A stretch of 32,000 bases of DNA from Nonomuraea sp. H19 (GTDB lineage Bacteria > Actinomycetota > Actinomycetes > Streptosporangiales > Streptosporangiaceae): contig NZ_JBQHCV010000011.1 in the NCBI RefSeq assembly GCF_052068215.1, positions 242,003 through 274,002 of the forward strand, given 5' to 3'. Shown here one piece after another: positions 5,471 through 16,771 of this stretch (position 1 is the first letter of the stretch; each line of letters starts with the position of its first letter). The translations under genes and the position numbers were made by a program. Below the pieces are notes generated by a model. The model had not been told where the DNA came from. It worked only from the letters and a program-made list of their open reading frames with translations, and did no database searches.

Positions 5471-5902
5471 TCAAGCGCCGACCTCGTCGGCCAGGCGTGA
5501 CAGGTAGGCCGCGAACTGCCGACGGTCGCGTTCGTCCCAGGAGGCGGTCAGCTCGTCGAAGGCGTGCCGCTGCCACTGCCGGGACCCGGCCAGCAACGCG
5601 TGCCCGCGCTCCGTGAGCCGCAGGGAGGCGCGGCGCCGGTCGCGTTCGGAGGTGGCGCGGGCGAGGTAGCCGGCCTCGACGGCGTCCTTGACCATGCGGC
5701 TGGCGCCCGAGTGGTCGAGCCCGAGCTGGTGCGCCACGGTGCCCACGGTCGGGGCGTCGCCGGTCTGGGTGTGTACGGCCTCCACGACCAGGATGTGCTG
5801 TACATGCCGCGGCTCCCCGGTCAGCTCGTGCGACGCCTGTCCGGCCCATCGGCGCGACCAGAACCGCACCAGCCGGAACAGGGCGGGCCCACCGTCGTTC
5901 AT
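5471..5902 (-). CDS. MarR-family transcriptional regulator
   Basis: Winged-helix block PTVGTVAHQLGLDHSGASRMVKDAVEAGYLARATSERDRRRASLRLTERG. Divergent from a VOC gene, with palindromes in between. Confidence 0.9.
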   Translation of the reverse strand: MNDGGPALFRLVRFWSRRWAGQASHELTGEPRHVQHILVVEAVHTQTGDAPTVGTVAHQLGLDHSGASRMVKDAVEAGYLARATSERDRRRASLRLTERGHALLAGSRQWQRHAFDELTASWDERDRRQFAAYLSRLADEVGA

Positions 5903-5903
5903 G

Positions 5904-5951
5904 ATCGCATTTTACATGCGATGCGCACATATGATTGCATGCGAATCGCAT
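5904..5951. promoter_or_regulatory. Candidate MarR operator sites in the divergent promoter region
   Basis: ATCGCAT-tttac-ATGCGAT (5904-5922) and ATGCGA-a-TCGCAT (5939-5951). The same half-site occurs four times in a locally AT-rich 73-bp intergenic region. Confidence 0.55.
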
Positions 5952-5975
5952 ATATTCGGCTCAAAAGGAGTCCTC

Positions 5976-6353
5976 GTGGCCATCGTCATGAACCATCTGA
6001 TCGTCCCCGCCGCCGACCGGAACGAGGCGGCCGGGTTCTTCGCGGACCTGCTGGGGCTGCGGGTCGGCACGCCGGCGGGACCGTTCGCGCCGGTCCGCGT
6101 CAACGACGACCTCACGCTCGACTTCGACGACCGGCACAACCCCCAGCCCGGCCACTACGCCTTCCTGGTCGACGACGCCACCTTTGACGCGGTCATGGAG
6201 CGCCTCGGCCGCAGCCCGTCCATCGACTACGGCTCCGGGCCCATGAACGGCTGGGACCGGGAGATCAACCGTCTCGGGGGCGGCCGCGGCGTGTACGTAC
6301 GCGACCCGAACGGCCACAGCTACGAGCTCTTCACCGCAGTCCCGCCCATGTGA
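5976..6353 (+). CDS. VOC (glyoxalase/bleomycin-resistance/dioxygenase) family protein
   Basis: MNHLIVPAADRNEAAGFFADLLGL ... GHYAFLVDD ... RGVYVRDPNGHSYELF. AAAGGAG lies 6 nt before GTG 5976; ATG 5988 is an alternative start. Confidence 0.85.
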   Translation: MAIVMNHLIVPAADRNEAAGFFADLLGLRVGTPAGPFAPVRVNDDLTLDFDDRHNPQPGHYAFLVDDATFDAVMERLGRSPSIDYGSGPMNGWDREINRLGGGRGVYVRDPNGHSYELFTAVPPM

Positions 6354-6473
6354 CCGGCCGCCCGAAAATTTCTCGAATTCGATTGAACCCGGCGGCGGCG
6401 AGCGGCGTACAACCTGGCGGAAAACGGCGCTCGCCGATGGCCGGAAGCATGGTTCACCTGGGCGAACATCGGC

Positions 6474-7283
6474 GTGCCCACCCTGCGCGACTCACCCGGC
6501 ACGGGGATGGCGATGGAATTTCAGGGATGGACCGGCGGCCTGGCCTTACAGCCGCGCGATTACCTGGGGAGAGGCCGGCCACTGGCCGACGTCGTCAGGA
6601 CGGCCGGACCGGTCAGGGGAGAGGCGCTCTACCTGCTGACGCTCGGCAGCGCGGCCACCATGGCCAGGCTGCACCTGGGCGGGATCGCGGGACTGCGGCT
6701 CAGCCCGGGCAACGTCATGATCGGGGCGCACGGGCAGGTGTTCTTCGCCCCAGGGCCGCGTGACAGCGAGTTCCCCTCGCGCGACGTGCGTGACTGGGCC
6801 GACGTGATCATGTTCGCGGCGACCGGGCGGCAGGCGGGGGAGGGCGAAGAGCCCGATCTCGACAGGCTGCTGCCCGCGTTGCGCGCGGTGATCGACGAGT
6901 GCCGGCAGCCCGATCCGGAGTGCCGCCCGACGGCCGTCGAGCTGGTGAGCATCCTGCTCGGCCGCTCCGAGCCGCCCCCCCGCGCCACGGTGGAGGAACT
7001 GCTGCGGGAGGCCGAGAACCGGACCAGGCCGTACGAACCCGCGCCCTACGAGGACGTGCTCGTGTCCACGCCGGTCTGGCGCGAACCGGCGTACCTGGCC
7101 GGTGTCGCGATCGGCGTGCTCATCGTCGCGTTCGCGGCGAGCGTCGTCATCGCGATCTCCAGCGGGGCGGTGCAGGCTTCGTCCGCCGACGCCTTCGAGG
7201 GGAGCGCCGTCACCTCGTACGAGATGAAGCCGACGGTTGGGAACGCTCCAGAACCCATCGAGGGAGAGGTCCGGAATGGCTGA
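6474..7283 (+). CDS. Truncated pseudokinase (kinase C-lobe-like, catalytic residues lost) with one TM helix; candidate EssB/YukC-like component
   Basis: LHLGGIAGLRLSPGNVMIGAHGQVFFAPG replaces the HRD...N...DFG region. Other kinase-like blocks are DVRDWADVIMFAATGRQ and PDPECRPTAVELVSIL. TM helix AYLAGVAIGVLIVAFAASVVIAISSGAV. The start is uncertain (GTG 6474, ATG 6507 or ATG 6513). Confidence 0.6.
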   Translation: MPTLRDSPGTGMAMEFQGWTGGLALQPRDYLGRGRPLADVVRTAGPVRGEALYLLTLGSAATMARLHLGGIAGLRLSPGNVMIGAHGQVFFAPGPRDSEFPSRDVRDWADVIMFAATGRQAGEGEEPDLDRLLPALRAVIDECRQPDPECRPTAVELVSILLGRSEPPPRATVEELLREAENRTRPYEPAPYEDVLVSTPVWREPAYLAGVAIGVLIVAFAASVVIAISSGAVQASSADAFEGSAVTSYEMKPTVGNAPEPIEGEVRNG

Positions 7284-7563
7284 GGAATTCACCGCCGACC
7301 GGCAGGAGGCGGCGAGCGTCTCGCGGGACCTCAAGTCCATTCGCGCGGCCCTGGACGGAGGCAAGATCGGCGCGCTCGACGCGCGGACCGGCTCGGCGAA
7401 GGTCGACGACGCGCTGCGGACGTTCTTCGAGGAGTCCTCGGACAACCGCGAGCGGATGAACCAGCTACTCGAGCGGGCGGCCGGGCTGCTCGACGCCCTC
7501 GTCGAGGGCACCGGGCAGCTCGACGGCTCGCTGGCGGACTCGCTGTCGACGAGGAGCGCGTGA
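7276..7563 (+). CDS. Small (95 aa) predicted all-helical protein; possible WXG100-like partner or targeting factor
   Basis: ATG 7276 follows GGAGAGG and overlaps the upstream stop (ATGGCTGA). The sequence has a heptad-like helical character (LKSIRAALDGG ... MNQLLERAAGLLDALVEG) and no WXG motif. Confidence 0.6.
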   Translation: MAEEFTADRQEAASVSRDLKSIRAALDGGKIGALDARTGSAKVDDALRTFFEESSDNRERMNQLLERAAGLLDALVEGTGQLDGSLADSLSTRSA

Positions 7564-7709
7564 TGAAGGCGCTCGGACTCGGCGTCCTCACCGGCATCCT
7601 GCTCGGGACGATCGTGGTGTCGCTGGTGTTCGCGCTGACGGACCGGAACGTGCCGGCGAACGCTCGATCATCCCAGCCCGCGTACATGGAGGAGCTCTCC
7701 GATGGCTGA
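7563..7709 (+). CDS. 48-aa single-pass membrane peptide (not in ORF track); EssA-sized candidate component
   Basis: Hand translation gives MKALGLGVLTGILLGTIVVSLVFALTDRNVPANARSSQPAYMEELSDG. Its ATG overlaps the upstream TGA (GTGATGA), and its stop overlaps the next ATG (ATGGCTGA). Confidence 0.5.
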   Translation: MKALGLGVLTGILLGTIVVSLVFALTDRNVPANARSSQPAYMEELSDG

Positions 7710-8298
7710 TCTTCCCTTCGGGTTCACGGTACGGGTGCCCGAATCCTGGTACGAGTTCGACGTGTGGCGGGCCGGCCACAGCGGTGACCTGGCGCGCCTG
7801 GTGGACGCCCGGGTGGCGGCCAACCCGGAGCTGGCGCCCCACCGGTCGCTGCTGGTGAAGGTGCTGCGCGAGGTCGCCGACCTGGCGGGCCGGCGCGGCG
7901 CGGTTTTCGGCGCGGCGATGACCGACCACGCGGAGGACGTCGGCACCGTCCTCGCCACCCTCATGGTCCTGCACACCGGGGGATCGCCGGACCCGGAAGG
8001 CAACGCCGTCGAGGCCATCGCCTCGGGCATCATCGCGATCCCGCCCAGGCACGACACACCCGCCTGGCGCGACGTCGAGATCGTGGAGATCGACGCGGGC
8101 CGCGCCGTACGAGTCACCGGCGTCGAGTCCGGCGAGATCGAAGCGGTGACCATGCAGACCCTCATTCCCGTACCCGGCGGGCACGGCGTGCTGGACCTGG
8201 TGCTGACCAGCCCGCACCTGAGCCTGACCGAGCCCATGCTCGATCTGTTCGACGCGATCAGCGCCACCCTGGCCTGGTCCGACCCCCAAGGAGAGTGA
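7702..8298 (+). CDS. Hypothetical 198-aa soluble protein; possible secretion adaptor or chaperone
   Basis: Translationally coupled on both sides. Begins FGFTVRVPESWYEFD and ends with a beta-rich segment (VTMQTLIPVPGGHGVLDLVLTSPHLS...LFDAISATLAW). No family assigned with confidence. Confidence 0.65.
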   Translation: MADLPFGFTVRVPESWYEFDVWRAGHSGDLARLVDARVAANPELAPHRSLLVKVLREVADLAGRRGAVFGAAMTDHAEDVGTVLATLMVLHTGGSPDPEGNAVEAIASGIIAIPPRHDTPAWRDVEIVEIDAGRAVRVTGVESGEIEAVTMQTLIPVPGGHGVLDLVLTSPHLSLTEPMLDLFDAISATLAWSDPQGE

Positions 8299-8304
8299 AC
8301 CGTC

Positions 8305-8607
8305 ATGGCAGGTGGGACCCATCACCTCAGCTTCCCCCAGGTGGAGAACAGCGCCACCCGGCTGAACAAGGAGAAGGAGGACATCGAGAGCCGTCTGACC
8401 CAGCTCAAGTCGATGATCGACCAGCTCGTCAGCAGCGACTTCGTCACCGAGCGCGCCTCGGGCAAGTTCCAGCAGGACTACGACCAGTGGAACAACGGCG
8501 CCAGGCAGGTCATGCAGGGCCTGGAGGGCATGAGCCAGTTCCTCAAGACCGCCATCGCCAAGCACCGCGAGCTGGACGCCTCGCTCAGCGGCGGCGCGGG
8601 AGCGTGA
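8305..8607 (+). CDS. WXG100-family (EsxA-like) small secreted protein
   Basis: 100 aa with a helix-turn-helix pattern and a central FQQDYDQWNNGARQVMQGLEGMSQFL block (W-x-x-G variant of WXG). GGAGAG lies 9 nt before the ATG. Sits immediately upstream of the Rhs toxin. Confidence 0.85.
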   Translation: MAGGTHHLSFPQVENSATRLNKEKEDIESRLTQLKSMIDQLVSSDFVTERASGKFQQDYDQWNNGARQVMQGLEGMSQFLKTAIAKHRELDASLSGGAGA

Positions 8608-8611
8608 CGTC

Positions 8612-11600
8612 ATGCCGGGCGGATGGGAGGTGCTCGGGCTGCCCGGCGACCCCGCGCCCGGGAACCCGGGCGAGGTTCGGGGACTCGCCGGCCGGCTGCT
8701 CAAGGAAGCGCAGCTCGCCGAGGACAACACGGCCAAGTTGACGGCGGTGGCGGGTGGCAGCTCGGCGTTGCGGATGCGCGGGGATTACGCGGCGCGGTAC
8801 GCCGAGGCGCTGGGCGAGCTGCCCGGCGAGCTGACCAAGCTGGGCAAGGCGTACCGGGGCGCCGGGAACGCGCTGATGGCCTATGCCGGTTCGCTGGAGC
8901 AGGCCAAGACCCAGGCCGGTACGGCGCTGCGCCAGGGCCAGACGGCCGACGTCCAGTACCGGGGCGCGTTACGGGAGGTACAGGCGCAGCTGCCGGGCGC
9001 GGGCGCGGTGGGGAGCCTGGCGGAGGCGGAGTCGGCGGTCGGCGCGGCGGATCCGGCGGTGCAGGCGGCGGTGCGGCCGGCGGTGCAGCGGGCCCGCGCC
9101 GCCGACGCCGACCGGGCGCGGGCGCGGCGGATCGCCGATGAGGCGGCCCAGTTGCGCGGTGATGCCGAGAGCCGGGCGGTGCGGGAGATCGATCAGGCGC
9201 TGGCGGGCAGCGGCATCAAGAACAAGTCGTTCCTGCAGAAGGCGTGGGACGTGATCTCGACGCCGTTCCGGTCGTGGGATGACTTCGTGTCGTTCGCGGG
9301 CAAGGTGGCGCTGGTGGCCGGGCTGGTGGTGCTGGTGATCGGCACCGGCGGGCTGGCCGGGGTGGTGCTGGCCGGGGTCGCGGTGGCGGCCGGGGCGGTG
9401 GTGCTGGCCGACGCGCTCAACAAGTACCGCCAGGGCAGGGGCTCCTTGGGGCAGGTGGCGCTGGCCGCGGTCGGGGTGATCCCGGGCGGCAAGAGCATCG
9501 GCCTGCTGGCCCAGGGGGCCAAGGCCGTGACCGGGCTGCGCGGCGCCGCCGCGGCCGTCCGCGGCGGCGGAGGCACGCTGCTGGGACTCGGCGCGGCGGG
9601 GATCCGCGGCGGCCGGGCCGCCCTGGGAGCCGGGGCGACGTCGATCCGCTCGGCGATCCAGGCGGGCGGGTCGCGGGCCGGTGCGACGGCGACCGCGGCC
9701 TGGCAGCGCGGCCGGCAGTTCTTCAGCAAGGACCCGGTGCACTTCCCCACCGGTATCGTGCTGCTCCCGCAGACGGACGTGGACCTGCCGGGGGCACTGC
9801 CGCTGCGGCTGGAGCGCACACATCTGTCCAGCTACCGTACGGGGCGCTGGTTCGGCCGATCCTGGGCCTCGACCCTGGACCAACGCGTGGAGGCGGACGC
9901 CGAAGGCGTGTGCCTGGCCACCGCCGGCGGCGCCGTACTCGCCTTCCCGCATCCCGAGCCCGGCCAGGCCGTCCACCCCGACGACGGTCCCCGCCTGGCA
10001 TTGCGCGCGGAAGGGACCGGCTACACGGTCACCGACCCGCACACCGGCCACACCACCCACTTCGCACCATTACCGCAAGAGGATTCGAAGGTGCTGCCGA
10101 TCGCGGCGATCACCGACCGCAACGGCGACCGCGTCGACTTCCACTACACCGACGGCCTGCTCACCGAGGTGACCCACTCCGGCGGCTACCACCTGGACAT
10201 CGAGACCGCGCACGGCCGCATCGTGGAGATCCGCCTGCGCGGCGCCGGCCAGAGCCTCGTCTCCTACGCCTACGACGAGGCCGGCGACCTGACCGAGGTG
10301 ACCAACTCTTCTGGCCTGCCGCTGCGTTTCACCTACGACGACGACGGCCGGATGACCCGCTGGCACGACCGCATCGGCACCTGGTACGCCTACACCTACG
10401 ACGGGGAAGGCCGCTGCGTTTACGGCACCGGCAAGGACGGCATCTTCAACACGGAGATCAGCTACGGGGACGGCGTCACCCGCGCGTACGACTCACTGGG
10501 CCACGCCACCACGTACCACTACAACGACCTCCTTCAGGTAGTCGCCGAGACCAACCCCCTCGGCCACGTAACCCGCTACCACTGGGACCACTACGACCGC
10601 TTGCTGTCGCAGACCGACCCGCTGGGCCGCACCGTGCGGTATACCTACGACGAGTTCGGCATGCCGCTTTCGATCAGCCGCCCGGACGGTGCCACTCGTC
10701 GCCACACCTACAACGACCTGCACCTGCCGGTCACTATCACCGACTACGACGGCAGCGTCCACGCGTTCGAATACGACGAGCGCGGCAACATCATCAGCGA
10801 CGGCGACAGCCGCTTCACCTACAACCAGCACGGACACCTGGCCGCGATCACCAACGCCCTGGGCCACACCTGCAGCGTGCGAACGGATGCTGCCGGGCTG
10901 CCGGTGGAGGTCACCGATGCGCTGGGCGGGACGACCCGCTATGAGCGCGATGCTTTTGGGCGAGCCACCGCCATCACCGACGCCCTCGGCAACACCACCC
11001 GCTACACCTGGACAGTGGAGGGCAAGCCGGCCAGTCGCACGCTACCTAGCGGCGTGACCGAACGCTGGCGGTATGACGGGGAGAACAACCTCATCGAACA
11101 CGTCGACGCGCTCGGCCGGGCGACCCACACCGAAGTCGGCTCCTTCGACGTGGCCACCGCACTGACCACCGCGGGCGGTGCCCGTCTGGAGCTCGCCTAC
11201 GACACCGAGTTGCGCCTCGCCCAGGTCACCAACCCCCAGGGGCTGACCTGGCACTACACCTACGACGCGGAAGGCGACCTGATCCGGGAGACCGACTTCA
11301 ACCACCGTACGCTGACCTACGTCCGGGACGCGGCCGGCAGGTTGATCGAACGCGTCAACGGGGCCGGAGAGTCCACCAGCTACACCCACGACGTTCTGGG
11401 CCAGGTCATCGAGCAGCGCTCGGAGGACCGCGTCACCACGTTCGCCTACGATGCGCTCGGCCGCCTGACCTGGGCGGTGAACCCGGATGCCGACCTGCGC
11501 ATCAGTCGAGACGCTCACGGCAGGATCACCGCCGAAACCTGCAACGGGCGCACGCTCACCTCGGCCTACGACGCACTCGGCCGACGCGTACACCGCCGCA

Positions 11601-13036
11601 CCCCCTCAGGAGCGGAAGCGGTTTGGGATTACAACCCGCGCAACCAGCCCAAGATGCTGCAGACAGCCGGCCAGACGGTCGCTTTCGCCTATGATCCAGC
11701 GGGCCACGAAATTGGTCGAAATTTCGGCACAAACGTCTCGCTGATTCATGACTGGGACCCCGACTCCCGCCTCCGCGCCCAGACCCTCCGCACCGGAAAT
11801 CGGCTCATCCAGCGGCGCACCTACGACTATCGCCCAGACGGCCATCTCATTCAGATCGACGACCTGCTGTCCGGCCGCCGCCACTACGACCTGGATCCGG
11901 TCGGCCGCGTTACCGGTGTCCAGGGCGCGAACTGGTCGGAGCGCTACACCTACAACGCCGCCGGCCAGATCACCGACGCCACATGGCCGGCGTCGTCGGA
12001 CGCCCGCGGCCCTCGCGCCTACACGGGGACAATGATCCGCCAGGCGGGCCGTACGCGATATGAGTACGACCGTCAGGGCCGGGTGACCCTCCGCCAGCAG
12101 AAGGGCCTGTCATCGAGACCCAGGACATGGCGCTACACGTGGGACGCCGACGACCGCCTGACAGGCGTCACCACGCCGGATGGCGCGACCTGGCGCTACT
12201 TGTACGACCCCCTCGGCCGCCGCGTAGCGAAAGAACGGGTGAACGGTTCCGAGCGTACGGATTTCGTCTGGGACGGCCTCACCCTGGCCGAGCAGACCAC
12301 CGAGGACCGCACGACGGTATGGGACTGGATCCCCGGCACCTTCCACCCTCTCTCCCAGACAGAGCGCCGAGCCGATTCCCAGGAGTGGATCGATGAGCAG
12401 TTCTACGCCATCGCCACTGACTTGATCGGCACCCCTGCCGAACTCGTGGATCCAGACGGCAACCTGGCCTGGCGCACGAGGCAGGACTTGTGGGGAGCCT
12501 CGACCGACCTTGTCTCGACCGGAGCCGACTGTCCCTTGCGGTTCCCTGGCCAGTACGCGGACGAGGAGTCCGGTCTTCAGTACAACTACTTCCGTCACTA
12601 CGACCCGGCCAGCGCTCATTACCTGGCAAGCGACCCCATCGGCCTCTCCGGTGGCTGGAACCCGCACGCCTACGTGGACAACCCGAAGTCATGGTGCGAC
12701 CCGCTGGGGCTGAGCCCGTACGGGACCTCGATCTGGAGTTCGACGAGCAGCAGGACGTCGGTCGAGAACGCGTATGGTCACTGGCGCAGCCACGGGCGGG
12801 AATTCCCGCACCTGAACAACGCGAAGGAATATGTGGAGGAAGCGACGGGCTTCCTGACCGGCGGCCATCCGGGCACGCTCACCAGGCACCGGCCGAACGG
12901 CGACGTCGTTCGCTACAATCCGCAGACCGATCAGTTCGGCGTGCGGAACGCGCAGGGCGTTCCGCGAACATATTTCATACCGGACCCGCAGGTCCACGGA
13001 TATCCGACCAATCTGGACTACTTCAATGCCCAATAA
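8612..13036 (+). CDS. Rhs/YD-repeat polymorphic toxin with N-terminal helical secretion-signal-like domain and a TM block
   Basis: N-terminus: WEVLGLPGDPAPGNPGEVRGLA...YAGSLEQAKTQAGTAL. Hydrophobic block: VALVAGLVVLVIGTGGLAGVVLAGVAVAAGAVVLA. DUF6531-like block: DPVHFPTGIVLLPQTDVDLPGALPLRLERTHLSSY..FGRSW. Dozens of YD repeats (YTYDxxGR). Rhs core end: RFPGQYADEESGLQYNYFRHYDP...NPKSWCDPLGL. Confidence 0.95.
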   Translation: MPGGWEVLGLPGDPAPGNPGEVRGLAGRLLKEAQLAEDNTAKLTAVAGGSSALRMRGDYAARYAEALGELPGELTKLGKAYRGAGNALMAYAGSLEQAKTQAGTALRQGQTADVQYRGALREVQAQLPGAGAVGSLAEAESAVGAADPAVQAAVRPAVQRARAADADRARARRIADEAAQLRGDAESRAVREIDQALAGSGIKNKSFLQKAWDVISTPFRSWDDFVSFAGKVALVAGLVVLVIGTGGLAGVVLAGVAVAAGAVVLADALNKYRQGRGSLGQVALAAVGVIPGGKSIGLLAQGAKAVTGLRGAAAAVRGGGGTLLGLGAAGIRGGRAALGAGATSIRSAIQAGGSRAGATATAAWQRGRQFFSKDPVHFPTGIVLLPQTDVDLPGALPLRLERTHLSSYRTGRWFGRSWASTLDQRVEADAEGVCLATAGGAVLAFPHPEPGQAVHPDDGPRLALRAEGTGYTVTDPHTGHTTHFAPLPQEDSKVLPIAAITDRNGDRVDFHYTDGLLTEVTHSGGYHLDIETAHGRIVEIRLRGAGQSLVSYAYDEAGDLTEVTNSSGLPLRFTYDDDGRMTRWHDRIGTWYAYTYDGEGRCVYGTGKDGIFNTEISYGDGVTRAYDSLGHATTYHYNDLLQVVAETNPLGHVTRYHWDHYDRLLSQTDPLGRTVRYTYDEFGMPLSISRPDGATRRHTYNDLHLPVTITDYDGSVHAFEYDERGNIISDGDSRFTYNQHGHLAAITNALGHTCSVRTDAAGLPVEVTDALGGTTRYERDAFGRATAITDALGNTTRYTWTVEGKPASRTLPSGVTERWRYDGENNLIEHVDALGRATHTEVGSFDVATALTTAGGARLELAYDTELRLAQVTNPQGLTWHYTYDAEGDLIRETDFNHRTLTYVRDAAGRLIERVNGAGESTSYTHDVLGQVIEQRSEDRVTTFAYDALGRLTWAVNPDADLRISRDAHGRITAETCNGRTLTSAYDALGRRVHRRTPSGAEAVWDYNPRNQPKMLQTAGQTVAFAYDPAGHEIGRNFGTNVSLIHDWDPDSRLRAQTLRTGNRLIQRRTYDYRPDGHLIQIDDLLSGRRHYDLDPVGRVTGVQGANWSERYTYNAAGQITDATWPASSDARGPRAYTGTMIRQAGRTRYEYDRQGRVTLRQQKGLSSRPRTWRYTWDADDRLTGVTTPDGATWRYLYDPLGRRVAKERVNGSERTDFVWDGLTLAEQTTEDRTTVWDWIPGTFHPLSQTERRADSQEWIDEQFYAIATDLIGTPAELVDPDGNLAWRTRQDLWGASTDLVSTGADCPLRFPGQYADEESGLQYNYFRHYDPASAHYLASDPIGLSGGWNPHAYVDNPKSWCDPLGLSPYGTSIWSSTSSRTSVENAYGHWRSHGREFPHLNNAKEYVEEATGFLTGGHPGTLTRHRPNGDVVRYNPQTDQFGVRNAQGVPRTYFIPDPQVHGYPTNLDYFNAQ
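12713..13036 (+). other. C-terminal variable toxin domain (107 aa) of the Rhs protein, family unassigned
   Basis: Starts right after the DPLGL cleavage motif (12698-12712). Sequence: SPYGTSIWSS...VENAYGHWRSHGREFPHLNNAKEYVEEATGF...VVRYNPQTDQFGVRNAQGVPRTYFIPD. GC is visibly lower than in the YD-repeat body. Confidence 0.65.
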
Positions 13037-13292
13037 TGGCAATCTGTACTGTCGAGTCTGCGGACTGCTTCAGAAGGGCCCGCCGTGGGGCGAGGACGGA
13101 AGAACGCCTTCGTGGGACATCTGCGCCTGCTGTGGAATTGAATTCGGCTATCAAGATGCCACGCCGGCGGGTGTCCTCCGAGCCAGGAACGCGTGGATCG
13201 CCAAAGGATGCCCTTGGTTTGACGAGCCGAAGCGACCTCCGGGTTGGCACATGGAAGAGCAGCTCGCGCACGCTCAAGACGTGGACGCGTGA
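13026..13292 (+). CDS. Small Cys-rich (CxxC...CxxC) protein; candidate cognate immunity protein
   Basis: The ATG lies 11 nt inside the toxin gene end. 88 aa, containing YCRVCG...ICACCGIEFGY. It is in the classic immunity position directly after an Rhs C-terminal domain and in the same lower-GC patch. No clear SD. Confidence 0.55.
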   Translation: MPNNGNLYCRVCGLLQKGPPWGEDGRTPSWDICACCGIEFGYQDATPAGVLRARNAWIAKGCPWFDEPKRPPGWHMEEQLAHAQDVDA

Positions 13293-13478
13293 GGGGCGCC
13301 TCGACCCGCCGGTCCAGAATGAGCCTGTCCGACCCCGTCCGGTGCGCCGCCGCTGAGGTCGAGACCCGGTGGTCTCAGGGCCTGATGGCCAGATCAGTAA
13401 TGGCCGTCGCTTTCGTGCTCGACGTTTGTGAACTTGCCGGTTCGCAGGGCCTCTCTGGCCGAGGCCATCCGGGTGTGG

Positions 13479-14384
13479 TCACGAGGACAGCGCGTCGCGG
13501 ATGACGGTGATCAACGTCTGCTGCAAAGGGGACAGGCGCTTGTCTGTGCGCCAGACGACGAAGACCGGCAGGCGCGGCTGGGTGCCGGCGATCCGGATCT
13601 CGTGAAGCGCGCCTGTGGCCAGTTCTGCGGCCACCGAGGCGCGAAAGAGCAGCGCGACGCCGAGCCCGGCGCGGACGGCGTGTTTGATCGCCTCGGGGTG
13701 GCCGAACTCGATGACCACCTCGCGGTCGGTGACGCCGAGTTCGGCGAGCGCTGTGTCCTCCAGGTCGCGCCGGATGGAGGAGCGCGGCGTGGCGACGAAG
13801 GGCAGCCGGGCCAGTTCCTCCACCGAGATGCTGTCGTTCACCGTGCCGGGCGCGCCGGCGAGCACGAGATCCTGGTGACCGGCGAACTGCCCGGTGAGGC
13901 CGCGGCTGTGGGGAATCCGCGGGGCGATCGGGACGGCCAGGTCGCACAACCCGGAGGTGACGGCCTCCCAGATCTGGTTCGGGTCGAACACGTGCGCCGC
14001 GATCCGCGCGCCCGGATGGGCCAGGGCGAAGTCGGTGAGGACGGGCGGCAGCAAGTAGCTGCCCACGGTCATGCTGGTGGCCACGGCCACGGCCCCCGCG
14101 GTGCCGCCGGCGAGGCCGGCCAGCTCGCGATCGAGCTCGTTGCCGCGGCGCAGTGTGTCGCGGGACCACCGGTAAGCGATGTGGCCCGCGTCGGTGAGCT
14201 CCAGGCGCTGGCCCACGCGGTGGAACAGCTCGACGCCCAGCCGTTCCTCAAGCGAACGGATGTGGCCGCTTACGACGGGCTGCGAGACATACAGGTGGGC
14301 GGCGGCGCGGCCCACGCCTCCCTGCTCCACGACAGCGCAGAAGACCTCGAGCTTGTGCAGGGAGATGCGGTTGTCTATAGCCAT
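13479..14384 (-). CDS. LysR-family transcriptional regulator
   Basis: N-terminal HTH LHKLEVFCAVVEQGGVGRAAAHLYVSQPVVSGHIRSLEERLGVELFHR followed by a substrate-binding domain. Start is ATG at 14384; the longer tracked ORF extension is rejected. Confidence 0.9.
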   Translation of the reverse strand: MAIDNRISLHKLEVFCAVVEQGGVGRAAAHLYVSQPVVSGHIRSLEERLGVELFHRVGQRLELTDAGHIAYRWSRDTLRRGNELDRELAGLAGGTAGAVAVATSMTVGSYLLPPVLTDFALAHPGARIAAHVFDPNQIWEAVTSGLCDLAVPIAPRIPHSRGLTGQFAGHQDLVLAGAPGTVNDSISVEELARLPFVATPRSSIRRDLEDTALAELGVTDREVVIEFGHPEAIKHAVRAGLGVALLFRASVAAELATGALHEIRIAGTQPRLPVFVVWRTDKRLSPLQQTLITVIRDALSS

Positions 14385-14495
14385 ATGACTATGAGTATCG
14401 CAAGATATTCGTCTTTGCCCCCTGTTGTAGGTGGTCCTAGCCTGATCCAGGCATCCATTCCCGCATATGGGTCGCCTGCGGAAAGGACCTTCCCG

Positions 14496-15293
14496 ATGAC
14501 CACGTTCACCTACCACGGGGCAGACGGCCACCCGTTGCACGCCACCACGATCGGCGCCGACGGACCGCCCCTCGTCCTGCTGCACGGTGGCGGCCCCGAT
14601 CATCACAGCCTGCTGCCGCTGGCCCGCCGCCTCGCCGACCTGCACACCGTGATCCTCCCCGACGTACGAGGCTACGGCCGGTCGGTCTGCGCCGATCCCG
14701 CCCGGCACACCTGGGACCAGTACACCTGCGACGTGCTCGCCCTGCAGGATCACCTGGGCATCCGGAGCGCCGTGCTGGGCGGCACGGGCCTGGGCGCTAC
14801 CGTGACCCTGCGTACCGCGCTCGCCCACCCGGACCGCGTCCGCGCCGCCATCCTGATCGGCGTTGAGGACATCGAGGACGACCAGGACAAGGAGGCCGAG
14901 ACCGCGTTCCTCGACGCGTTCGCCGCCCGAGTGCTCGCCGACGGCGTCGAGGCGGCCTGGGCGCCGATCCTGGAACGGTTCCCGCCGGTCATCGGCGCCA
15001 TGGTGCGCGACGCGATCCCGCGCTCGGATCCGGCCAGCATCGCCGCGGCGGCGGCCATCGGCCGCGACCGGGCCTTCCGGGGCCTCGACGAACTCGCCGC
15101 GATCAGCTCGCCGACTCTGGTCATCCCAGGAACCGATCCGCGCCATCCGAGGGAGCTCGGCGAGCAGGTCGCCGGGGTGCTGCGCAGGGGCCGCCTCGCG
15201 CCGGTCGCCGTCTCGGCCGACCTGCACACCGCCGACGACCTCGCGGCGGCGATCGTCCCGGCGATCCGCGCCTTCCTCAGCGACCCTCGCTGA
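14496..15293 (+). CDS. Alpha/beta-hydrolase fold protein (non-canonical nucleophile elbow)
   Basis: PPLVLLHGGGPDHHSLLPLARRLADLHTVILPDVRGYGRS ... AVLGGTGLGATV ... PTLVIPG. GGAAAGGA lies 7 nt before ATG 14496. Divergent from the LysR gene. Confidence 0.85.
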   Translation: MTTFTYHGADGHPLHATTIGADGPPLVLLHGGGPDHHSLLPLARRLADLHTVILPDVRGYGRSVCADPARHTWDQYTCDVLALQDHLGIRSAVLGGTGLGATVTLRTALAHPDRVRAAILIGVEDIEDDQDKEAETAFLDAFAARVLADGVEAAWAPILERFPPVIGAMVRDAIPRSDPASIAAAAAIGRDRAFRGLDELAAISSPTLVIPGTDPRHPRELGEQVAGVLRRGRLAPVAVSADLHTADDLAAAIVPAIRAFLSDPR

Positions 15294-15295
15294 CC

Positions 15296-15760
15296 ATGGA
15301 GAACGGCACGCTGCTGGTCCGCGATGGACACCTCTACACCGCCGACGAGAGCGCGCGCACCCACCGGGCGGGTTCGGTGCTGGCCGTGAACGGGCGGATC
15401 GTCGCGGTGGGCGAGACACCGACGGTGGACCTGGCCGCCGCCGCGCTGAGCCGGCGAGAGCGCGCCAGTCTGCGCACGATCGACGCGAGCGGGATGCTGA
15501 TCCTGCCCGGCTTCGTCAACGCGCACTGGCACGAGGTGCTCGCCAGGGGCCTGTCCCAGTTCGGGCCGCAGGATTACCTGCCCGGCCGGCCCGGCACCGC
15601 GTCCGGGGTGACACTCGGGCTCGCTGTGAGCGTCGGCGGGCTCAGCGCCCCCGCACTGGGCGCGGCGGCCGAGGCGTACGGACCTCAGGGCGTCTTCACC
15701 ATATTGTGTCTGGTCCCGGTGGCCGCCGTCATGCTGGGCCTCTTCCTCCCCCGCGAATGA
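15296..15760 (+). pseudogene. Chimeric relic: amidohydrolase N-terminus fused in frame to an MFS-transporter-like C-terminal tail
   Basis: Residues 1-~85 are VNGRIVAVGE...IDASGMLILPGFVNAHWHEV, an amidohydrolase start with the HxH metal motif. The remaining ~300 residues of such enzymes are absent. The tail GVTLGLAVSVGGLSAPALGAAAEAYGPQGVFTILCLVPVAAVMLGLFLPRE looks like the last TM helices of a transporter. Confidence 0.55.
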
Positions 15761-15914
15761 CGGCACAAGCGGACGATGCCCCCAGGTCCGGGCATCCGCG
15801 AAGGTCGGCGCGGGCGCCGGCTGGGGGAGACCAATCGTGATCAAACAGCCAGGCCGGCAAACGTCCAGCTCAGCAGGTTACTGCGGAAGAGCTACACCCA
15901 TCGCGTTCCGCTTC

Positions 15915-16508
15915 TCAGTTGCGGACCAGCGGCGCGGCGAACCACTGCTGGAGCAGGCTGCCACCCTTGCAACTGCCGACGCCCACCTCGGCGTTGCCCC
16001 GCACGTTGGGCTGAGCGCTGGTCAGGCACTTCTTGGTGGCGAAGTTCTGCATCCTGAAGGCGTCCTTGAAAGGTGCGGGCGCGTCGTTCGCCAGCTTGAA
16101 CGCCCACTTCTGGGTCTGCTTGCCACCCACGCACCGGGCGACGAACAGCCGACCTGCGCTGTCGGCCTCCAGACACACGGTCTGCCCGCGCACGAGCTTC
16201 CTGCTGACCAGCTTGCCGCCGTTGATGAAGTTCCACTGCTGCTCGACGTCGTTGCCGCCGCGGGCGAACCTGCTGAAGACCTGGCCCTTGCCGCTTGCGC
16301 CGACGTCGCCGACCTCCAATGTCAGGTTGGTCTTGCGGTTGCTGATGTTCAGGGTGCCGGCCGGCGGTGCGGCGGCCACCGACGCGGCGTCGGCGGAGGC
16401 GGCCATGGGGGCGGCGGCAGCCGCGGCGACCAGGGCCGCGCTCATGGCGCCGAGCGCCGCGCCACGCCGGAGGGTACGGGCGGCGCCAAATGACAGGGCA
16501 TGCTTCAT
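15915..16508 (-). CDS. Secreted ricin-type beta-trefoil lectin domain protein
   Basis: Signal peptide with RR (ARTLRRGAALGAMSAALVAAAAAAPMAASA). Three QxW-type repeats (EQQWNF, TQKWAF, LQQWFA) and paired Cys. AAGGAGAAAGACC precedes the ATG. Confidence 0.85.
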   Translation of the reverse strand: MKHALSFGAARTLRRGAALGAMSAALVAAAAAAPMAASADAASVAAAPPAGTLNISNRKTNLTLEVGDVGASGKGQVFSRFARGGNDVEQQWNFINGGKLVSRKLVRGQTVCLEADSAGRLFVARCVGGKQTQKWAFKLANDAPAPFKDAFRMQNFATKKCLTSAQPNVRGNAEVGVGSCKGGSLLQQWFAAPLVRN

Positions 16509-16771
16509 GGTCTTTCTCCTTGTGGATCATGACAAAGCGTCCGCCGTGCCATGGAGGTCGACTGATCTGGCCACAGCCCCGCATCACTAGTGGGAGCCGG
16601 CAGGGCACGAACCTAGGCACGGGCACTGTCCACTCTCCAAGCCGGTTTCTGACCAATCGATGCTCGACCGACCAGCCCGTCCCAACCCGGCCCTCCAGGT
16701 GCCGCGCCCCGGCCGGCATCCGCGCGCGCCGGCCATCGCTCGAGGGCTGATGAGCACTTCTCGGACGATGA

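What the first reader, a model, noticed from the sequence alone, without database searches (positions are those of the whole stretch)
6474..7283. Kinase C-lobe remnant with all catalytic residues replaced, anchored by one TM helix
LHLGGIAGLRLSPGNVMIGAHGQVFFAPG aligns by eye with the lH..GivHRDlKPxNvll...G.v.l.DFG region of Hanks-type kinases. The HRD Asp, the catalytic-loop Lys and the DFG are all substituted. Later blocks (DVRDWADVIMFAATGRQ, PDPECRPTAVELVSIL) also fit the C-lobe. Only about 40 residues precede this region and the upstream intergenic is about 120 nt, so the ATP-binding N-lobe is absent. A TM helix and a short tail follow. It is the first gene of the translationally coupled toxin-export cluster, so it looks like a scaffold rather than an enzyme.
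Basis: partly seen in the sequence, partly recalled or inferred. Interest (0 to 1): 0.65.

Follow-up and report, generated by a model that had tools for sequence, protein, structure and literature searches.

The report
Half-kinase membrane protein heading toxin-secretion cluster
This gene encodes only the back half of a protein kinase, with its catalytic residues gone, tethered to the membrane; it leads a Nonomuraea gene cluster for type VII-like export of an Rhs toxin, so it most likely acts as a non-enzymatic adaptor, a stripped-down counterpart of the pseudokinase used by firmicute type VII systems.

Summary
The gene (most likely 6513-7283, 256 aa, not 6474) encodes a Hanks-kinase C-lobe with no N-lobe. 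HRD-Asp is Arg62 and the catalytic-loop Lys is Ser64. The DFG/activation loop (~26 aa) and helix αG (~12 aa) are deleted. One TM helix follows.

Pfam misses it, but an exhaustive profile search finds 4237 relatives at E≤1e-3. All seven Pfam-checked full-length hits are Ser/Thr kinases. The AlphaFold model's best PDB matches are PknB/PknA.

The family is essentially Nonomuraea-specific. Normal members (~420 aa) carry an extracytoplasmic LolA/LprF-like domain, shared with intact receptor kinases of related genera. The window copy lost that domain through in-frame deletions.

In 18 of 38 surveyed genomes the gene heads a conserved, tightly packed series: pseudokinase, 95 aa, 48-aa TM protein, 198 aa, WXG100, Rhs toxin, then an ATPase with an intact FHA domain. 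Distant paralogues flank the same gene set in another order. Seventeen species (16 of the 38, plus N. coxensis) lost the island but keep the C-lobe under purifying selection.

It is not an EssB/YukC family member. It is best read as an analogous, independently derived T7SS adaptor. That role is inferred, not shown. Verdict: new variant of a known kind.

The parts
6513..7283 (+). Pseudokinase gene (256 aa): kinase C-lobe only, one TM helix, remnant tail. The alternative GTG start at 6474 would give 269 aa.
   Evidence: ORF. The MEFQGW N-terminus is conserved in 30 of 35 homologues. SD-like GGGGA upstream, and an in-frame TGA at 6351-6353. Database gene call P0001.
6570..7025 (+). Cytoplasmic kinase C-lobe core (aa 20-171): alpha-D, alpha-E, degenerate catalytic loop, beta7-beta8, alpha-F, alpha-H, alpha-I, and a juxtamembrane helix.
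   Evidence: AlphaFold pLDDT ~90-96. Foldseek top hits PknB/PknA. BLASTP aa 20-160 to kinase residues 92-277.
6669..6716 (+). Degenerate catalytic loop LHLGGIAGLRLSPGNV (aa 53-68). HRD has become G60-L61-R62, the catalytic-loop Lys has become S64, and Asn67 is retained.
   Evidence: Alignments with intact kinases. G57, A59, G60, L61, R62 and L63 are invariant in the family.
6738..6782 (+). Shortened segment VFFAPGPRDSEFPSR (aa 76-90) in place of the DFG, activation loop and P+1/APE region. About 26 residues are missing.
   Evidence: Alignment A4. The two-stretch match pattern in the profile search, profile 20-75 and 88-155 against kinase ~95-150 and ~190-270.
6783..6956 (+). Alpha-F block DVRDWADVIMFAATGR (aa 91-106) through the alpha-H/alpha-I block PDPECRPTAVELVSIL (aa 133-148). 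Helix alpha-G between them is deleted (~12 aa).
   Evidence: The structural residues D91 and R138-P139 are invariant.
7089..7157 (+). Transmembrane helix core AYLAGVAIGVLIVAFAASVVIAI (aa 193-215), preceded by W-R on the cytoplasmic side.
   Evidence: AlphaFold helix 188-220. Conserved WRRPAYLAG motif.
7158..7280 (+). Remnant of the extracytoplasmic LolA/LprF-like domain. The main 405-nt in-frame deletion has its junction at about 7254/7255.
   Evidence: DNA alignment with L007 and L011. ECD fold of the full-length relative.
7276..7563 (+). 95-aa conserved cluster gene. Its start overlaps the pseudokinase stop (ATGgcTGA).
   Evidence: Conserved at 83-92% in the Nonomuraea islands and 51% in the distant L005. 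No Pfam or NCBIfam hit.
7563..7709 (+). 48-aa single-pass membrane protein gene, overlapping both neighbours (TGATG and ATGgcTGA).
   Evidence: A 47-aa homologue is called in N. fuscirosea.
7702..8298 (+). 198-aa conserved cluster gene of unknown fold.
8305..8607 (+). WXG100 (EsxA-like) protein.
   Evidence: Pfam WXG100 E = 4.7e-13. TIGR03930.
8612..13036 (+). Rhs polymorphic toxin (1474 aa), with a weak match to a T7SS signal domain at its N-terminus.
   Evidence: Pfam RHS_repeat 4.9e-87, DUF6531, RHS, and T7SS_signal at 0.0043.
16772..20974 (-). FtsK/SpoIIIE-type T7SS ATPase (1400 aa) with an N-terminal FHA domain (aa ~89-173) that keeps the phosphothreonine-binding residues.
   Evidence: Pfam FtsK_SpoIIIE 3.8e-45 and FHA 5.5e-11. 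EssC 315 bits and EccCa 293 bits, both below cutoff. Motifs GR, SxxH and SxNGT.
21091..22340 (+). ECF sigma factor and zf-HC2 anti-sigma factor at the far edge of the island. These become the pseudokinase gene's direct neighbours where the island is lost.

Best explanation
The gene encodes a membrane-anchored, N-lobe-less pseudokinase. It keeps the structural core of a Hanks-kinase C-lobe (alpha-D to alpha-I) but has no ATP-binding lobe, no catalytic Asp or Lys, no DFG/activation loop and no alpha-G. This core faces the cytoplasm and is followed by one TM helix.

The family descends from receptor Ser/Thr kinases of Streptosporangiales that carry a LolA/LprF-like ectodomain. It was recruited to a non-canonical type VII-like secretion island made of WXG100, an Rhs toxin and an FHA-bearing FtsK/SpoIIIE ATPase, with no EccB, EccD, EccE or MycP.

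It most likely works as a non-enzymatic adaptor, or membrane subunit, of that apparatus. The degenerate C-lobe would offer a protein-binding surface to the cytoplasmic N-terminus (FHA region) of the ATPase, and the TM helix (plus the ectodomain in most species) would anchor the complex in the envelope. This is functionally analogous to EssB/YukC in firmicute T7SSb.

Because the ATPase FHA keeps its phosphothreonine pocket and this protein cannot phosphorylate, any phospho-dependent docking would need a trans-acting kinase, as in the MviN-PknB-FhaA case.

Shown: the fold and homology, the loss of catalytic parts, the ancestry, the gene linkage and the purifying selection. Inferred: the physical interaction and the role in secretion.
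For: **Homology and fold:**

**Missing parts:** for the N-lobe, DFG/activation loop and alpha-G; for the in-frame upstream stop.

**Ancestry:** intact kinases from T. curvata, Microtetraspora and Actinomadura match the profile through the ECD. P0075 and P0058 look like intermediates.

**Linkage:** 18 of 38 genome loci have the same order, pseudokinase, 95 aa, (48 aa), 198 aa, WXG100, Rhs ... ATPase. In a distant lineage, two paralogues (profile E of 1.8e-34 and 3.7e-28) flank the same gene set in a different order. The intact T. curvata kinase is not T7SS-linked, so the association is specific to the degenerate form.

**Tight coupling:** overlaps of 8, 1 and 8 nt, then gaps of 6 and 4 nt.

**Selection:** dN/dS is 0.42 in island-bearing species. 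All 38 ORFs are intact over the C-lobe. The family-specific invariant residues lie in the former catalytic loop (G57-L63), in R52, and in the G81-P82-R83 stub.

**This copy's deletions:** all three are in frame and preserve the overlapping stop/start.

**Partner:** the ATPase has an N-terminal FHA domain.

**Precedent:** EssB pseudokinase contacts the EssC FHA domains, and membrane kinases or kinase-like proteins (TscD, TsdD, TseD, TshM) recur in T7SS variants (PMC11217815). The MviN pseudokinase recruits the FhaA FHA domain via phosphothreonine (PMC12599244).
Against: - No interaction or secretion data exist, so the role rests on gene neighbourhood and analogy.
- Seventeen species lost the whole island yet keep the C-lobe ORF under purifying selection (dN/dS 0.55). 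That suggests a function that does not need the secretion genes.
- The window copy and N. basaltis lack the ectodomain, so that part is dispensable or these copies are impaired.
- The FHA domain keeps a phosphothreonine pocket in Nonomuraea, which fits poorly with a purely phospho-independent EssB-style contact.
- No Thr is invariant in the cytoplasmic part.
- dS is probably compressed by the extreme GC3 bias, so the dN/dS values are only approximate.
Confidence: 0.6

Rival explanations
1. It is a signalling partner of the adjacent ECF sigma/anti-sigma pair, not a part of the secretion machine. The C-lobe would act as a cytoplasmic adaptor in an envelope-sensing pathway that regulates the island, among other targets.
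For: In 17 island-less species the C-lobe gene sits directly upstream of the sigma/anti-sigma genes and is still under purifying selection (dN/dS 0.55). Its ancestors are sensor kinases with a ligand-binding-type ectodomain.
Against: The distant paralogues P0056 and P0059 flank a T7SS gene set with no sigma/anti-sigma homologue within 10 kb. Eight remnants lack even the TM helix. In island-bearing species the gene is translationally coupled to the secretion genes and lies about 14 kb from the sigma gene.
Confidence: 0.15
2. It is a phospho-acceptor, or decoy. A housekeeping Ser/Thr kinase phosphorylates the pseudokinase, for example on the juxtamembrane linker around T171. The phosphothreonine then recruits the ATPase FHA domain, which gates assembly. 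This is the MviN-PknB-FhaA logic. It is a sub-variant of the adaptor model.
For: The FHA phosphothreonine-binding motifs (GR, SxxH, SxNGT) are conserved in all 6 Nonomuraea ATPases whose N-terminus was available. The pseudokinase cannot supply kinase activity. The MviN precedent is described in PMC12599244. Garrett et al. propose phospho-control for FHA-bearing T7SSd/e systems (PMC11217815).
Against: No Thr is invariant in the cytoplasmic domain, and T171 is replaced in several members. In the ERR3330961 lineage the FHA pocket is degenerate while two pseudokinases are retained. No kinase or phosphatase gene is in the island.
Confidence: 0.15
3. The window copy is a decaying remnant with no function: a pseudogene in the making that has lost its N-lobe, active site and ectodomain.
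For: The ectodomain is deleted here. In many species only truncated scars remain after island loss. N. salmonea (L029) has a frameshifted copy. dN/dS is only moderately below 1.
Against: The C-lobe ORF is intact in every species surveyed despite dS of about 0.3-0.5. Thirty-seven columns are invariant. All three deletions in this copy are in frame and keep the coupled stop/start. WIN-versus-relative dN/dS is 0.22-0.47. N-lobe loss is ancestral to the whole family, not recent.
Confidence: 0.08
4. It is still an enzyme: either an atypical kinase, or a repurposed catalytic pseudokinase in the manner of SidJ or SelO.
For: Asn67 of the catalytic loop is retained. Some pseudokinases have acquired new chemistries (PMC12599244).
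Against: There is no N-lobe, G-loop, beta3 Lys, alpha-C Glu, HRD Asp or DFG Asp, so no nucleotide-binding site can form from this chain alone. No neighbouring gene resembles an N-lobe.
Confidence: 0.02

Closest known systems
EssB/YukC, the membrane pseudokinase of firmicute T7SSb
   Same: Both have a cytoplasmic, catalytically dead kinase-fold domain, then a single TM helix, then an extracytoplasmic domain. Both are about 420-440 aa in full-length form. Both are encoded in a WXG100/toxin export cluster whose ATPase carries N-terminal FHA domains. EssB has an attenuated activation loop (PMC12599244) and contacts the EssC FHA domains (PMC11217815).
   Different: There is no sequence membership: Pfam YukC does not hit the query or any of 35 members. 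EssB keeps both lobes, whereas this family has no N-lobe. The EssB ectodomain is helical (PMC3694306), and here it is LolA/LprF-like. The best fold matches are PknB/PknA, with no EssB entry in the top 50. The EssC FHA domains lack the phosphothreonine site (PMC11217815), but here it is intact. The origin is independent, from actinobacterial receptor kinases.
TsdD/TscD/TseD membrane Ser/Thr kinases and TshM of the T7SSc-j variants (Garrett, Higginson & Palmer 2024, PMC11217815)
   Same: T7SSd is actinobacterial. It pairs an FHA-ATPase that has a conserved phosphothreonine site with a single-pass membrane kinase, a small single-TM protein (TsdH; compare the 48-aa gene here), WXG100 and Rhs substrates. 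It has no separate ubiquitin-like protein. TshM is a weakly kinase-like protein with a C-terminal TM helix and no ectodomain, much like the window copy.
   Different: TscD keeps a conserved active site and TsdD/TseD are predicted Ser/Thr kinases, whereas this protein has none and lacks the N-lobe. Their ectodomains are helical. No TsdI-like giant Ig-repeat protein is in the island. Nonomuraea and Streptosporangiales are not mentioned in that survey. ATPase phylogeny against TsdC was not tested.
[quoted passage not shown]
   Same: It is the only well-known module derived from a kinase C-lobe alone, and it is used as a protein-protein interaction domain (PMC2064798).
   Different: KIND is eukaryotic, soluble and of independent origin. 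There is no Pfam KIND hit.
Actinobacterial pseudokinase families ActPs1-3, including the MviN pseudokinase (PMC12599244)
   Same: All three catalytic motifs are degraded. ActPs1 often lacks alpha-G. ActPs3 has an activation-loop deletion and a C-terminal TM helix. The MviN pseudokinase acts through FHA recruitment.
   Different: Those families keep an N-lobe. ActPs3 family constraints, and the dimer interface, are concentrated there. None is described as T7SS-linked.
PknB/PknA-type Hanks receptor kinases; closest relatives are LolA-ectodomain kinases such as T. curvata WP_012855033
   Same: They share the C-lobe fold at 22-25% identity, and the same TM-plus-ectodomain architecture. The ectodomain is homologous.
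   Different: Those are full, presumably active kinases (HRD, DFG and VAIK present). The T. curvata gene is not in a secretion cluster.

Membership tests
Hanks-type (eukaryotic-like) protein kinase superfamily | Significant sequence similarity to kinase domains | tested here: met
   Pfam Pkinase itself fails (no hit at E<=10 for the query; best 0.018 among 35 members). However, the family profile hits 4237 proteins at E<=1e-3, and all seven full-length hits checked carry Pkinase at 1e-23 to 1e-43. BLASTP to the kinase P0051 gives E = 6e-11.
Hanks-type (eukaryotic-like) protein kinase superfamily | C-lobe fold (alpha-D to alpha-I around alpha-F) | tested here: met
   AlphaFold core pLDDT 90-96. 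Foldseek PknB/PknA E ~7e-6, probability 1.0, 846 chains at E<=1e-3.
Hanks-type (eukaryotic-like) protein kinase superfamily | N-lobe with G-loop, beta3 Lys and alpha-C Glu (ATP binding) | tested here: not met
   The protein starts at the beta5/hinge position. An in-frame stop lies upstream. The same N-terminus is found across the family.
Hanks-type (eukaryotic-like) protein kinase superfamily | Catalytic HRD Asp, catalytic-loop Lys and DFG Asp | tested here: not met
   HRD has become G60-L61-R62 and the Lys has become S64. The DFG/activation loop is deleted. Only Asn67 is kept.
EssB/YukC (T7SSb pseudokinase, Pfam YukC) | Sequence match to the YukC/EssB family model | tested here: not met
   No YukC hit for the query at E<=10, or for any of 35 members at E<=1.
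EssB/YukC (T7SSb pseudokinase, Pfam YukC) | Two-lobed pseudokinase domain | tested here: not met
   The N-lobe is absent.
EssB/YukC (T7SSb pseudokinase, Pfam YukC) | Single TM helix followed by a helical extracellular domain | tested here: not met
   A TM helix is present. The ectodomain of full-length members is a LolA/LprF-like beta half-barrel and is deleted in the window copy. The EssB C-terminal segment is helical (PMC3694306 abstract).
EssB/YukC (T7SSb pseudokinase, Pfam YukC) | Encoded with WXG100 and an FHA-bearing FtsK/SpoIIIE ATPase | tested here: met
EssB/YukC (T7SSb pseudokinase, Pfam YukC) | Binds the ATPase FHA domains and is required for secretion | not testable with these tools
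   This needs two-hybrid or pull-down experiments, or multimer modelling, plus genetics.
T7SSd (Garrett et al. 2024) | Actinomycetota; ATPase with N-terminal FHA that keeps the phosphothreonine-binding consensus | tested here: met
   GR, SxxH and SxNGT are present in the window and in 6 of 6 other Nonomuraea ATPases.
T7SSd (Garrett et al. 2024) | TsdD membrane kinase predicted to be an active Ser/Thr kinase | tested here: not met
   The active site and the N-lobe are both absent.
T7SSd (Garrett et al. 2024) | TsdH small single-TM protein | tested here: inconclusive
   A 48-aa single-TM gene lies at 7563-7709, but no sequence comparison with TsdH was possible.
T7SSd (Garrett et al. 2024) | TsdI giant secreted Ig-repeat protein | tested here: not met
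   The only island proteins over 1000 aa are the Rhs toxin and the ATPase.
T7SSd (Garrett et al. 2024) | ATPase clusters phylogenetically with TsdC | not tested
   No TsdC sequences were available. NCBIfam places the ATPase below the cutoff of both EssC (315 of 778 bits) and EccCa (293 of 509 bits).
T7SSa (ESX) | EccB, EccD, EccE and MycP encoded with EccC | tested here: not met
   None were found in the window or in homologous islands.
KIND domain | Kinase C-lobe-only, non-catalytic module | tested here: met
   The architecture matches. This is an analogy only.
KIND domain | Sequence membership (Pfam/SMART KIND) | tested here: not met
   No KIND hit at E<=10.

The most novel reading that the evidence does not exclude
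This family is the signature subunit of a type VII secretion subtype of Streptosporangiales that has not been described. The minimal machine would be built from a (possibly ubiquitin-like)-FHA-ATPase, a 48-aa TM protein and a membrane 'half-kinase', with no EccB/D/E/MycP and no EssA/EsaA. The adaptor would be a bacterial, KIND-like, C-lobe-only domain that evolved stepwise from a LolA-ectodomain receptor kinase: intact kinase, then HGD/alpha-G-less (P0058), then degenerate N-lobe (P0075), then N-lobe-less. It would dock the ATPase through its FHA domain. That would be an independent, convergent reinvention of the EssB solution.
Probability: 0.35. Interest if true: 0.75.

Novelty: new variant of a known kind. 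Interest (0 to 1): 0.55.

Why it matters
Kinase-fold membrane proteins keep appearing next to type VII ATPases (EssB, TscD, TsdD, TseD, TshM), but it is unclear which part of the kinase fold the machine actually needs. This family is a natural minimisation experiment. It dispenses with the entire N-lobe, the activation loop and alpha-G, while the remaining C-lobe core stays conserved and stays linked to the secretion genes. That points to the C-lobe face as the working surface.

The family also gives a rare bacterial example of a C-lobe-only module, with a traceable series of intermediates back to an active receptor kinase. The natural variants (with or without the ectodomain, with or without the island, FHA pocket intact or degenerate) could be used to test whether FHA-pseudokinase docking is phospho-dependent.

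Practically, the family has no Pfam match, its NCBI records are mostly called 'hypothetical protein', and several of its UniRef clusters are named 'serine/threonine protein kinase', a name that wrongly implies enzyme activity.

Tried and rejected
- **Single-sequence Pfam/NCBIfam scans:** no Pkinase, YukC or KIND hit, only AfsK at E = 0.016. These were too insensitive and were superseded by the profile search.
- **phmmer and family-profile hmmsearch against PDB sequences:** almost all hits are kinases and they are colinear, but E >= 0.04. Suggestive only.
- **Upstream N-lobe or a split kinase:** rejected. There is an in-frame TGA at 6351-6353, and the upstream genes encode an unrelated 221-aa ORF with no Pfam match and a MarR regulator. 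The 95-aa and 198-aa neighbours show no kinase similarity.
- **N-terminal extensions in P0002, P0004 and P0006:** at most 50 low-complexity residues from alternative upstream starts. Not an N-lobe.
not favoured. MAFFT alignment with intact relatives places APG on APE, with the DFG deleted. BLASTP agrees.
- **95-aa gene as a second WXG100:** no detectable similarity.
- **198-aa gene against PDB:** nothing.
- **Promoter/terminator scan of 5900-8700:** no consensus sites, which is uninformative at 71% GC.
- **Context of the intermediate P0075:** the contig is only 1.7 kb, so no information.
- **Direct superposition on EssB, and comparison of the ATPase with TsdC:** not possible because no sequences or coordinates were available.
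- **Ubiquitin-like reading of ATPase residues 1-75:** rests on inspection only. Pfam and NCBIfam gave no hit.
Full report
**1. The observation**

An ORF at 6474-7283 (+) exists. GC3 is 0.88 in this frame, which is typical of real genes in this 71% GC window.

The first start after the upstream stop is GTG 6474. However, 30 of 35 homologues begin at MEFQGW, and the database's own gene call (P0001, 256 aa) starts there too. ATG 6513 is also preceded by a GGGGA Shine-Dalgarno-like motif. I therefore take 6513-7283 as the gene.

An in-frame TGA at 6351-6353 ends the unrelated upstream gene, so no N-lobe can be added upstream.

**2. Is it a kinase C-lobe?**

Curated single-sequence models miss it. 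Pfam gives no Pkinase, YukC or KIND hit at E<=10, and NCBIfam gives only AfsK at E = 0.016. PDB sequence searches return almost only kinases, colinear with the query, but at E >= 0.04.

Three stronger tests settle the question:
- BLASTP to a bona fide Streptosporangium kinase (P0051, Pfam Pkinase) aligns residues 20-160 with kinase residues 92-277 at pairwise E = 6e-11. P0051 scored E = 6.9e-5 in a 5.8-billion-sequence search.
- A profile of 35 family members, scored against 1.84 billion representatives, finds 4237 proteins at E<=1e-3 and 1034 at E<=1e-10. The typical match has two stretches: profile 20-75 on residues ~95-150, and profile 88-155 on residues ~190-270. All seven full-length hits I checked carry Pfam Pkinase at 1e-23 to 1e-43.
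- The AlphaFold2 model (core pLDDT 90-96) has M. tuberculosis PknB and PknA kinase domains as its best PDB matches (E ~7e-6, probability 1.0, 22-25% identity), with 846 chains at E<=1e-3.

**3. Anatomy**

This comes from the alignment with intact relatives:
- The protein begins at the beta5/hinge position (GLALQPRDYLG aligns with PFVVTEYIDG). About 85-90 residues are therefore absent: G-loop, VAIK lysine and alpha-C.
- The catalytic loop HRDxKPxN has become G60-L61-R62-L-S64-P-G-N67.
- About 26 residues covering the DFG and the activation loop are missing. BLASTP agrees.
- Helix alpha-G (~12 residues) is missing.
- Structural residues are kept: the alpha-F Asp (D91) and the alpha-H/alpha-I Arg-Pro (R138-P139) are invariant.
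- A juxtamembrane helix follows, then a TM helix (core aa 193-215, with W-R on the inside), then a 41-residue tail.

**4. The family and its origin**

Homologues are confined to Nonomuraea, plus a few records labelled Actinomadura. Most are 413-437 aa. They share the same N-terminus and TM helix and carry an extra ~190-aa extracytoplasmic domain.

A model of the full-length N. fuscirosea protein gives this domain pLDDT 85-95. Its best PDB matches are mycobacterial LprF (E = 3e-6, TM-score 0.53 on the target) and LolA carriers. That is the LolA/LppX/LprG half-barrel fold.

The same ectodomain is found on intact Ser/Thr kinases (HRD, DFG and VAIK all present) of Thermomonospora curvata, Microtetraspora fusca and Actinomadura geliboluensis. 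Two proteins look like intermediates: A. barringtoniae P0058 (HGD, no alpha-G), and the metagenomic P0075 (degenerate N-lobe, activation loop and alpha-G deleted).

The family is therefore a degenerate offshoot of a receptor kinase lineage.

The window copy lost its ectodomain through three in-frame deletions of about 66, 9 and 405 nt. These preserve the 3' end of the gene. N. basaltis carries a different internal deletion.

**5. Context**

The stop of the gene overlaps the ATG of a 95-aa gene (ATGgcTGA).

I then found a 48-aa single-TM gene at 7563-7709 that my ORF listing, set at a 50-aa minimum, had left out. It overlaps both of its neighbours (TGATG, then ATGgcTGA again) and is conserved in N. 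fuscirosea.

After that come a 198-aa gene, WXG100 (6-nt gap) and a 1474-aa Rhs toxin (4-nt gap).

On the opposite strand lies a 1400-aa FtsK/SpoIIIE ATPase with an N-terminal FHA domain. It scores below the curated cutoffs of both EssC (315 of 778 bits) and EccCa (293 of 509 bits). An ECF sigma/anti-sigma pair closes the island. No EccB, EccD, EccE or MycP is present.

I surveyed 38 genome loci, one per species:
- 18 have the same island.
- 16 have no island and keep only the C-lobe part of the gene, directly next to sigma/anti-sigma. N. coxensis is a further example.
- 2 keep the ectodomain but have lost the island.
- 1 has remnants only.
- 1 is a kinase-like outgroup.

In an unidentified organism (ERR3330961), two distant N-lobe-less paralogues (profile E of 1.8e-34 and 3.7e-28) flank the same gene set in a different order. 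The intact T. curvata kinase is not in a secretion cluster.

The linkage between the degenerate form and the secretion genes is therefore specific, and it survives rearrangement.

**6. Selection**

Nei-Gojobori dN/dS over the C-lobe (codons 10-170) has a median of 0.42 among island-bearing species and 0.55 among island-less ones. For the window copy against its relatives it is 0.22-0.47.

All surveyed ORFs are intact over this region. dS is probably compressed by GC3 bias, so these ratios are upper-leaning estimates.

The module is maintained, and it is maintained to some degree even without the island.

**7. Mechanism**

Without an N-lobe there is no nucleotide pocket, so an enzymatic role is very unlikely.

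The family-specific invariant residues lie in the former catalytic loop (G57-L63), in R52, and in the G81-P82-R83 stub. I infer that this exposed face is a binding surface.

The obvious partner is the cytoplasmic N-terminus of the ATPase. In T7SSb, the EssB pseudokinase contacts the EssC FHA domains (PMC11217815, citing Tassinari 2022 and Bobrovskyy 2022).

Here the FHA domain keeps the phosphothreonine-binding set (GR, SxxH, SxNGT) in the window and in 6 of 6 other Nonomuraea ATPases. It is degenerate in the ERR3330961 lineage, which still keeps two pseudokinases. Docking may therefore be phospho-dependent in Nonomuraea, which would require a trans-acting kinase as in MviN-PknB-FhaA (PMC12599244). 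No Thr is invariant, though. T171 in the flexible linker is only a candidate.

The retention of C-lobe remnants next to sigma/anti-sigma in island-less species keeps a regulatory role open as a rival explanation.

**8. Comparison with what is known**

The protein works like EssB/YukC in architecture and context, but it fails EssB membership on four counts: no YukC model hit, no N-lobe, a non-helical ectodomain (against PMC3694306), and closest fold matches that are PknB/PknA.

The island resembles T7SSd of Garrett et al. 2024. That system is actinobacterial, has an FHA-ATPase with a phosphothreonine site, a membrane kinase, a small TM protein and Rhs substrates, and has no free ubiquitin-like protein. 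However, TsdD is described as a predicted Ser/Thr kinase, no TsdI is present here, and that paper does not cover Streptosporangiales.

The eukaryotic KIND domain is the conceptual precedent for a C-lobe-only interaction module (PMC2064798). The catalogued actinobacterial pseudokinase families ActPs1-3 share the alpha-G or activation-loop deletions but keep an N-lobe.

**9. Verdict**

This is a new variant of a known kind: a T7SS-linked membrane pseudokinase reduced to a C-lobe. The copy in this window has additionally lost its ectodomain. The adaptor function is inferred, not demonstrated.

Noticed in passing
window 7563-7709 (+): A 48-aa single-pass membrane protein gene (MKALGLGVLTGILLGTIVVSLVFAL...) that my 50-aa-minimum ORF listing left out. 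It overlaps both neighbours and is conserved in N. fuscirosea (47 aa). It could be a TsdH- or EssA-like small apparatus subunit.
   Followed up: partly
window 20750-20974 (-), ATPase residues 1-75: The extreme N-terminus of the ATPase (MIIRLTIRDP...DVEVTAEPETTIGSLL...GATISVGEP) looks by eye like a ubiquitin-like beta-grasp (YukD/EsaB or EccD N-terminal type) fused ahead of the FHA domain. Pfam and NCBIfam gave no hit, and no structure was predicted.
   Followed up: partly
window 20456-20710 (-), ATPase FHA domain (aa ~89-173): The FHA domain keeps the full phosphothreonine-binding set (G110-R111, S125-x-x-H128, S147-x-N149-G-T). It is conserved in 6 of 6 other Nonomuraea islands but degenerate (GG, SVV-, APGRV) in the ERR3330961 lineage, where Pfam records no FHA.
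   Followed up: yes
loci L003, L014, L015, L023, L026, L028, L030-L040: Whole-island loss is recurrent or ancient. The entire secretion island from mid-pseudokinase to the ATPase start is absent in 17 Nonomuraea species. What remains is an intact C-lobe ORF with varied C-termini (eight lack the TM helix), directly beside the ECF sigma/anti-sigma pair, at dN/dS of about 0.55.
   Followed up: partly
L029 (N. salmonea) 10001-10865: The pseudokinase ORF stops at 199 aa, although ectodomain-coding similarity continues downstream. Rhs is absent and the ATPase match is partial. This looks like an island caught in the process of decay.
   Followed up: no
window 7276-7283 and 7702-7709: The identical 8-nt overlap ATGGCTGA (stop of one gene, start of the next, both beginning M-A-[ED]) occurs at two junctions of the cluster. 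It is also present at the pseudokinase/95-aa junction in L007 and L011.
   Followed up: partly
window 13037-16771: The 3.7 kb between the Rhs toxin and the ATPase has lower GC (0.67-0.70) and no clean high-GC3 ORF until about 15.9 kb. A 621-aa ORF (13428-15293, +) has an alpha/beta-hydrolase match only in its C-terminal part. A 197-aa ORF (15915-16508, -) has a Ricin-B lectin domain. N. fuscirosea has just two small genes (126 and 102 aa) at this position. The region probably holds variable immunity or orphan-toxin cargo.
   Followed up: no
L004 (T. curvata-type contig) 10001-11695; also P0060, P0063, P0068: There is an uncharacterised class of intact actinobacterial receptor Ser/Thr kinases whose ectodomain is homologous to the LolA/LprF-like domain. 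This suggests lipid or lipoprotein sensing. In T. curvata the gene sits beside a two-component system and a sortase.
   Followed up: partly
L005/L006 (ERR3330961 contig): Two divergent N-lobe-less pseudokinase paralogues (375 and 411 aa) sit at opposite ends of one T7SS-like cluster. The cluster is inserted next to the rpsB-tsf-pyrH-frr housekeeping genes. Their ectodomains did not align well with the LolA-like domain.
   Followed up: no
window 8612-13036 (+): The N-terminal ~200 residues of the Rhs toxin match the Pfam 'putative T7SS secretion signal domain' only weakly (E = 0.0043). The C-terminal ~170 residues after the RHS core (the toxin tip) have no family match.
   Followed up: no
window 28802-31942 (-): A large HTH(Crp-like)-NB-ARC/AAA-TPR regulator (1046 aa). 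A similar 1151-aa gene lies a few kb beyond the sigma/anti-sigma pair in N. coxensis (L003), so it belongs to the conserved flank, not to the island.
   Followed up: no
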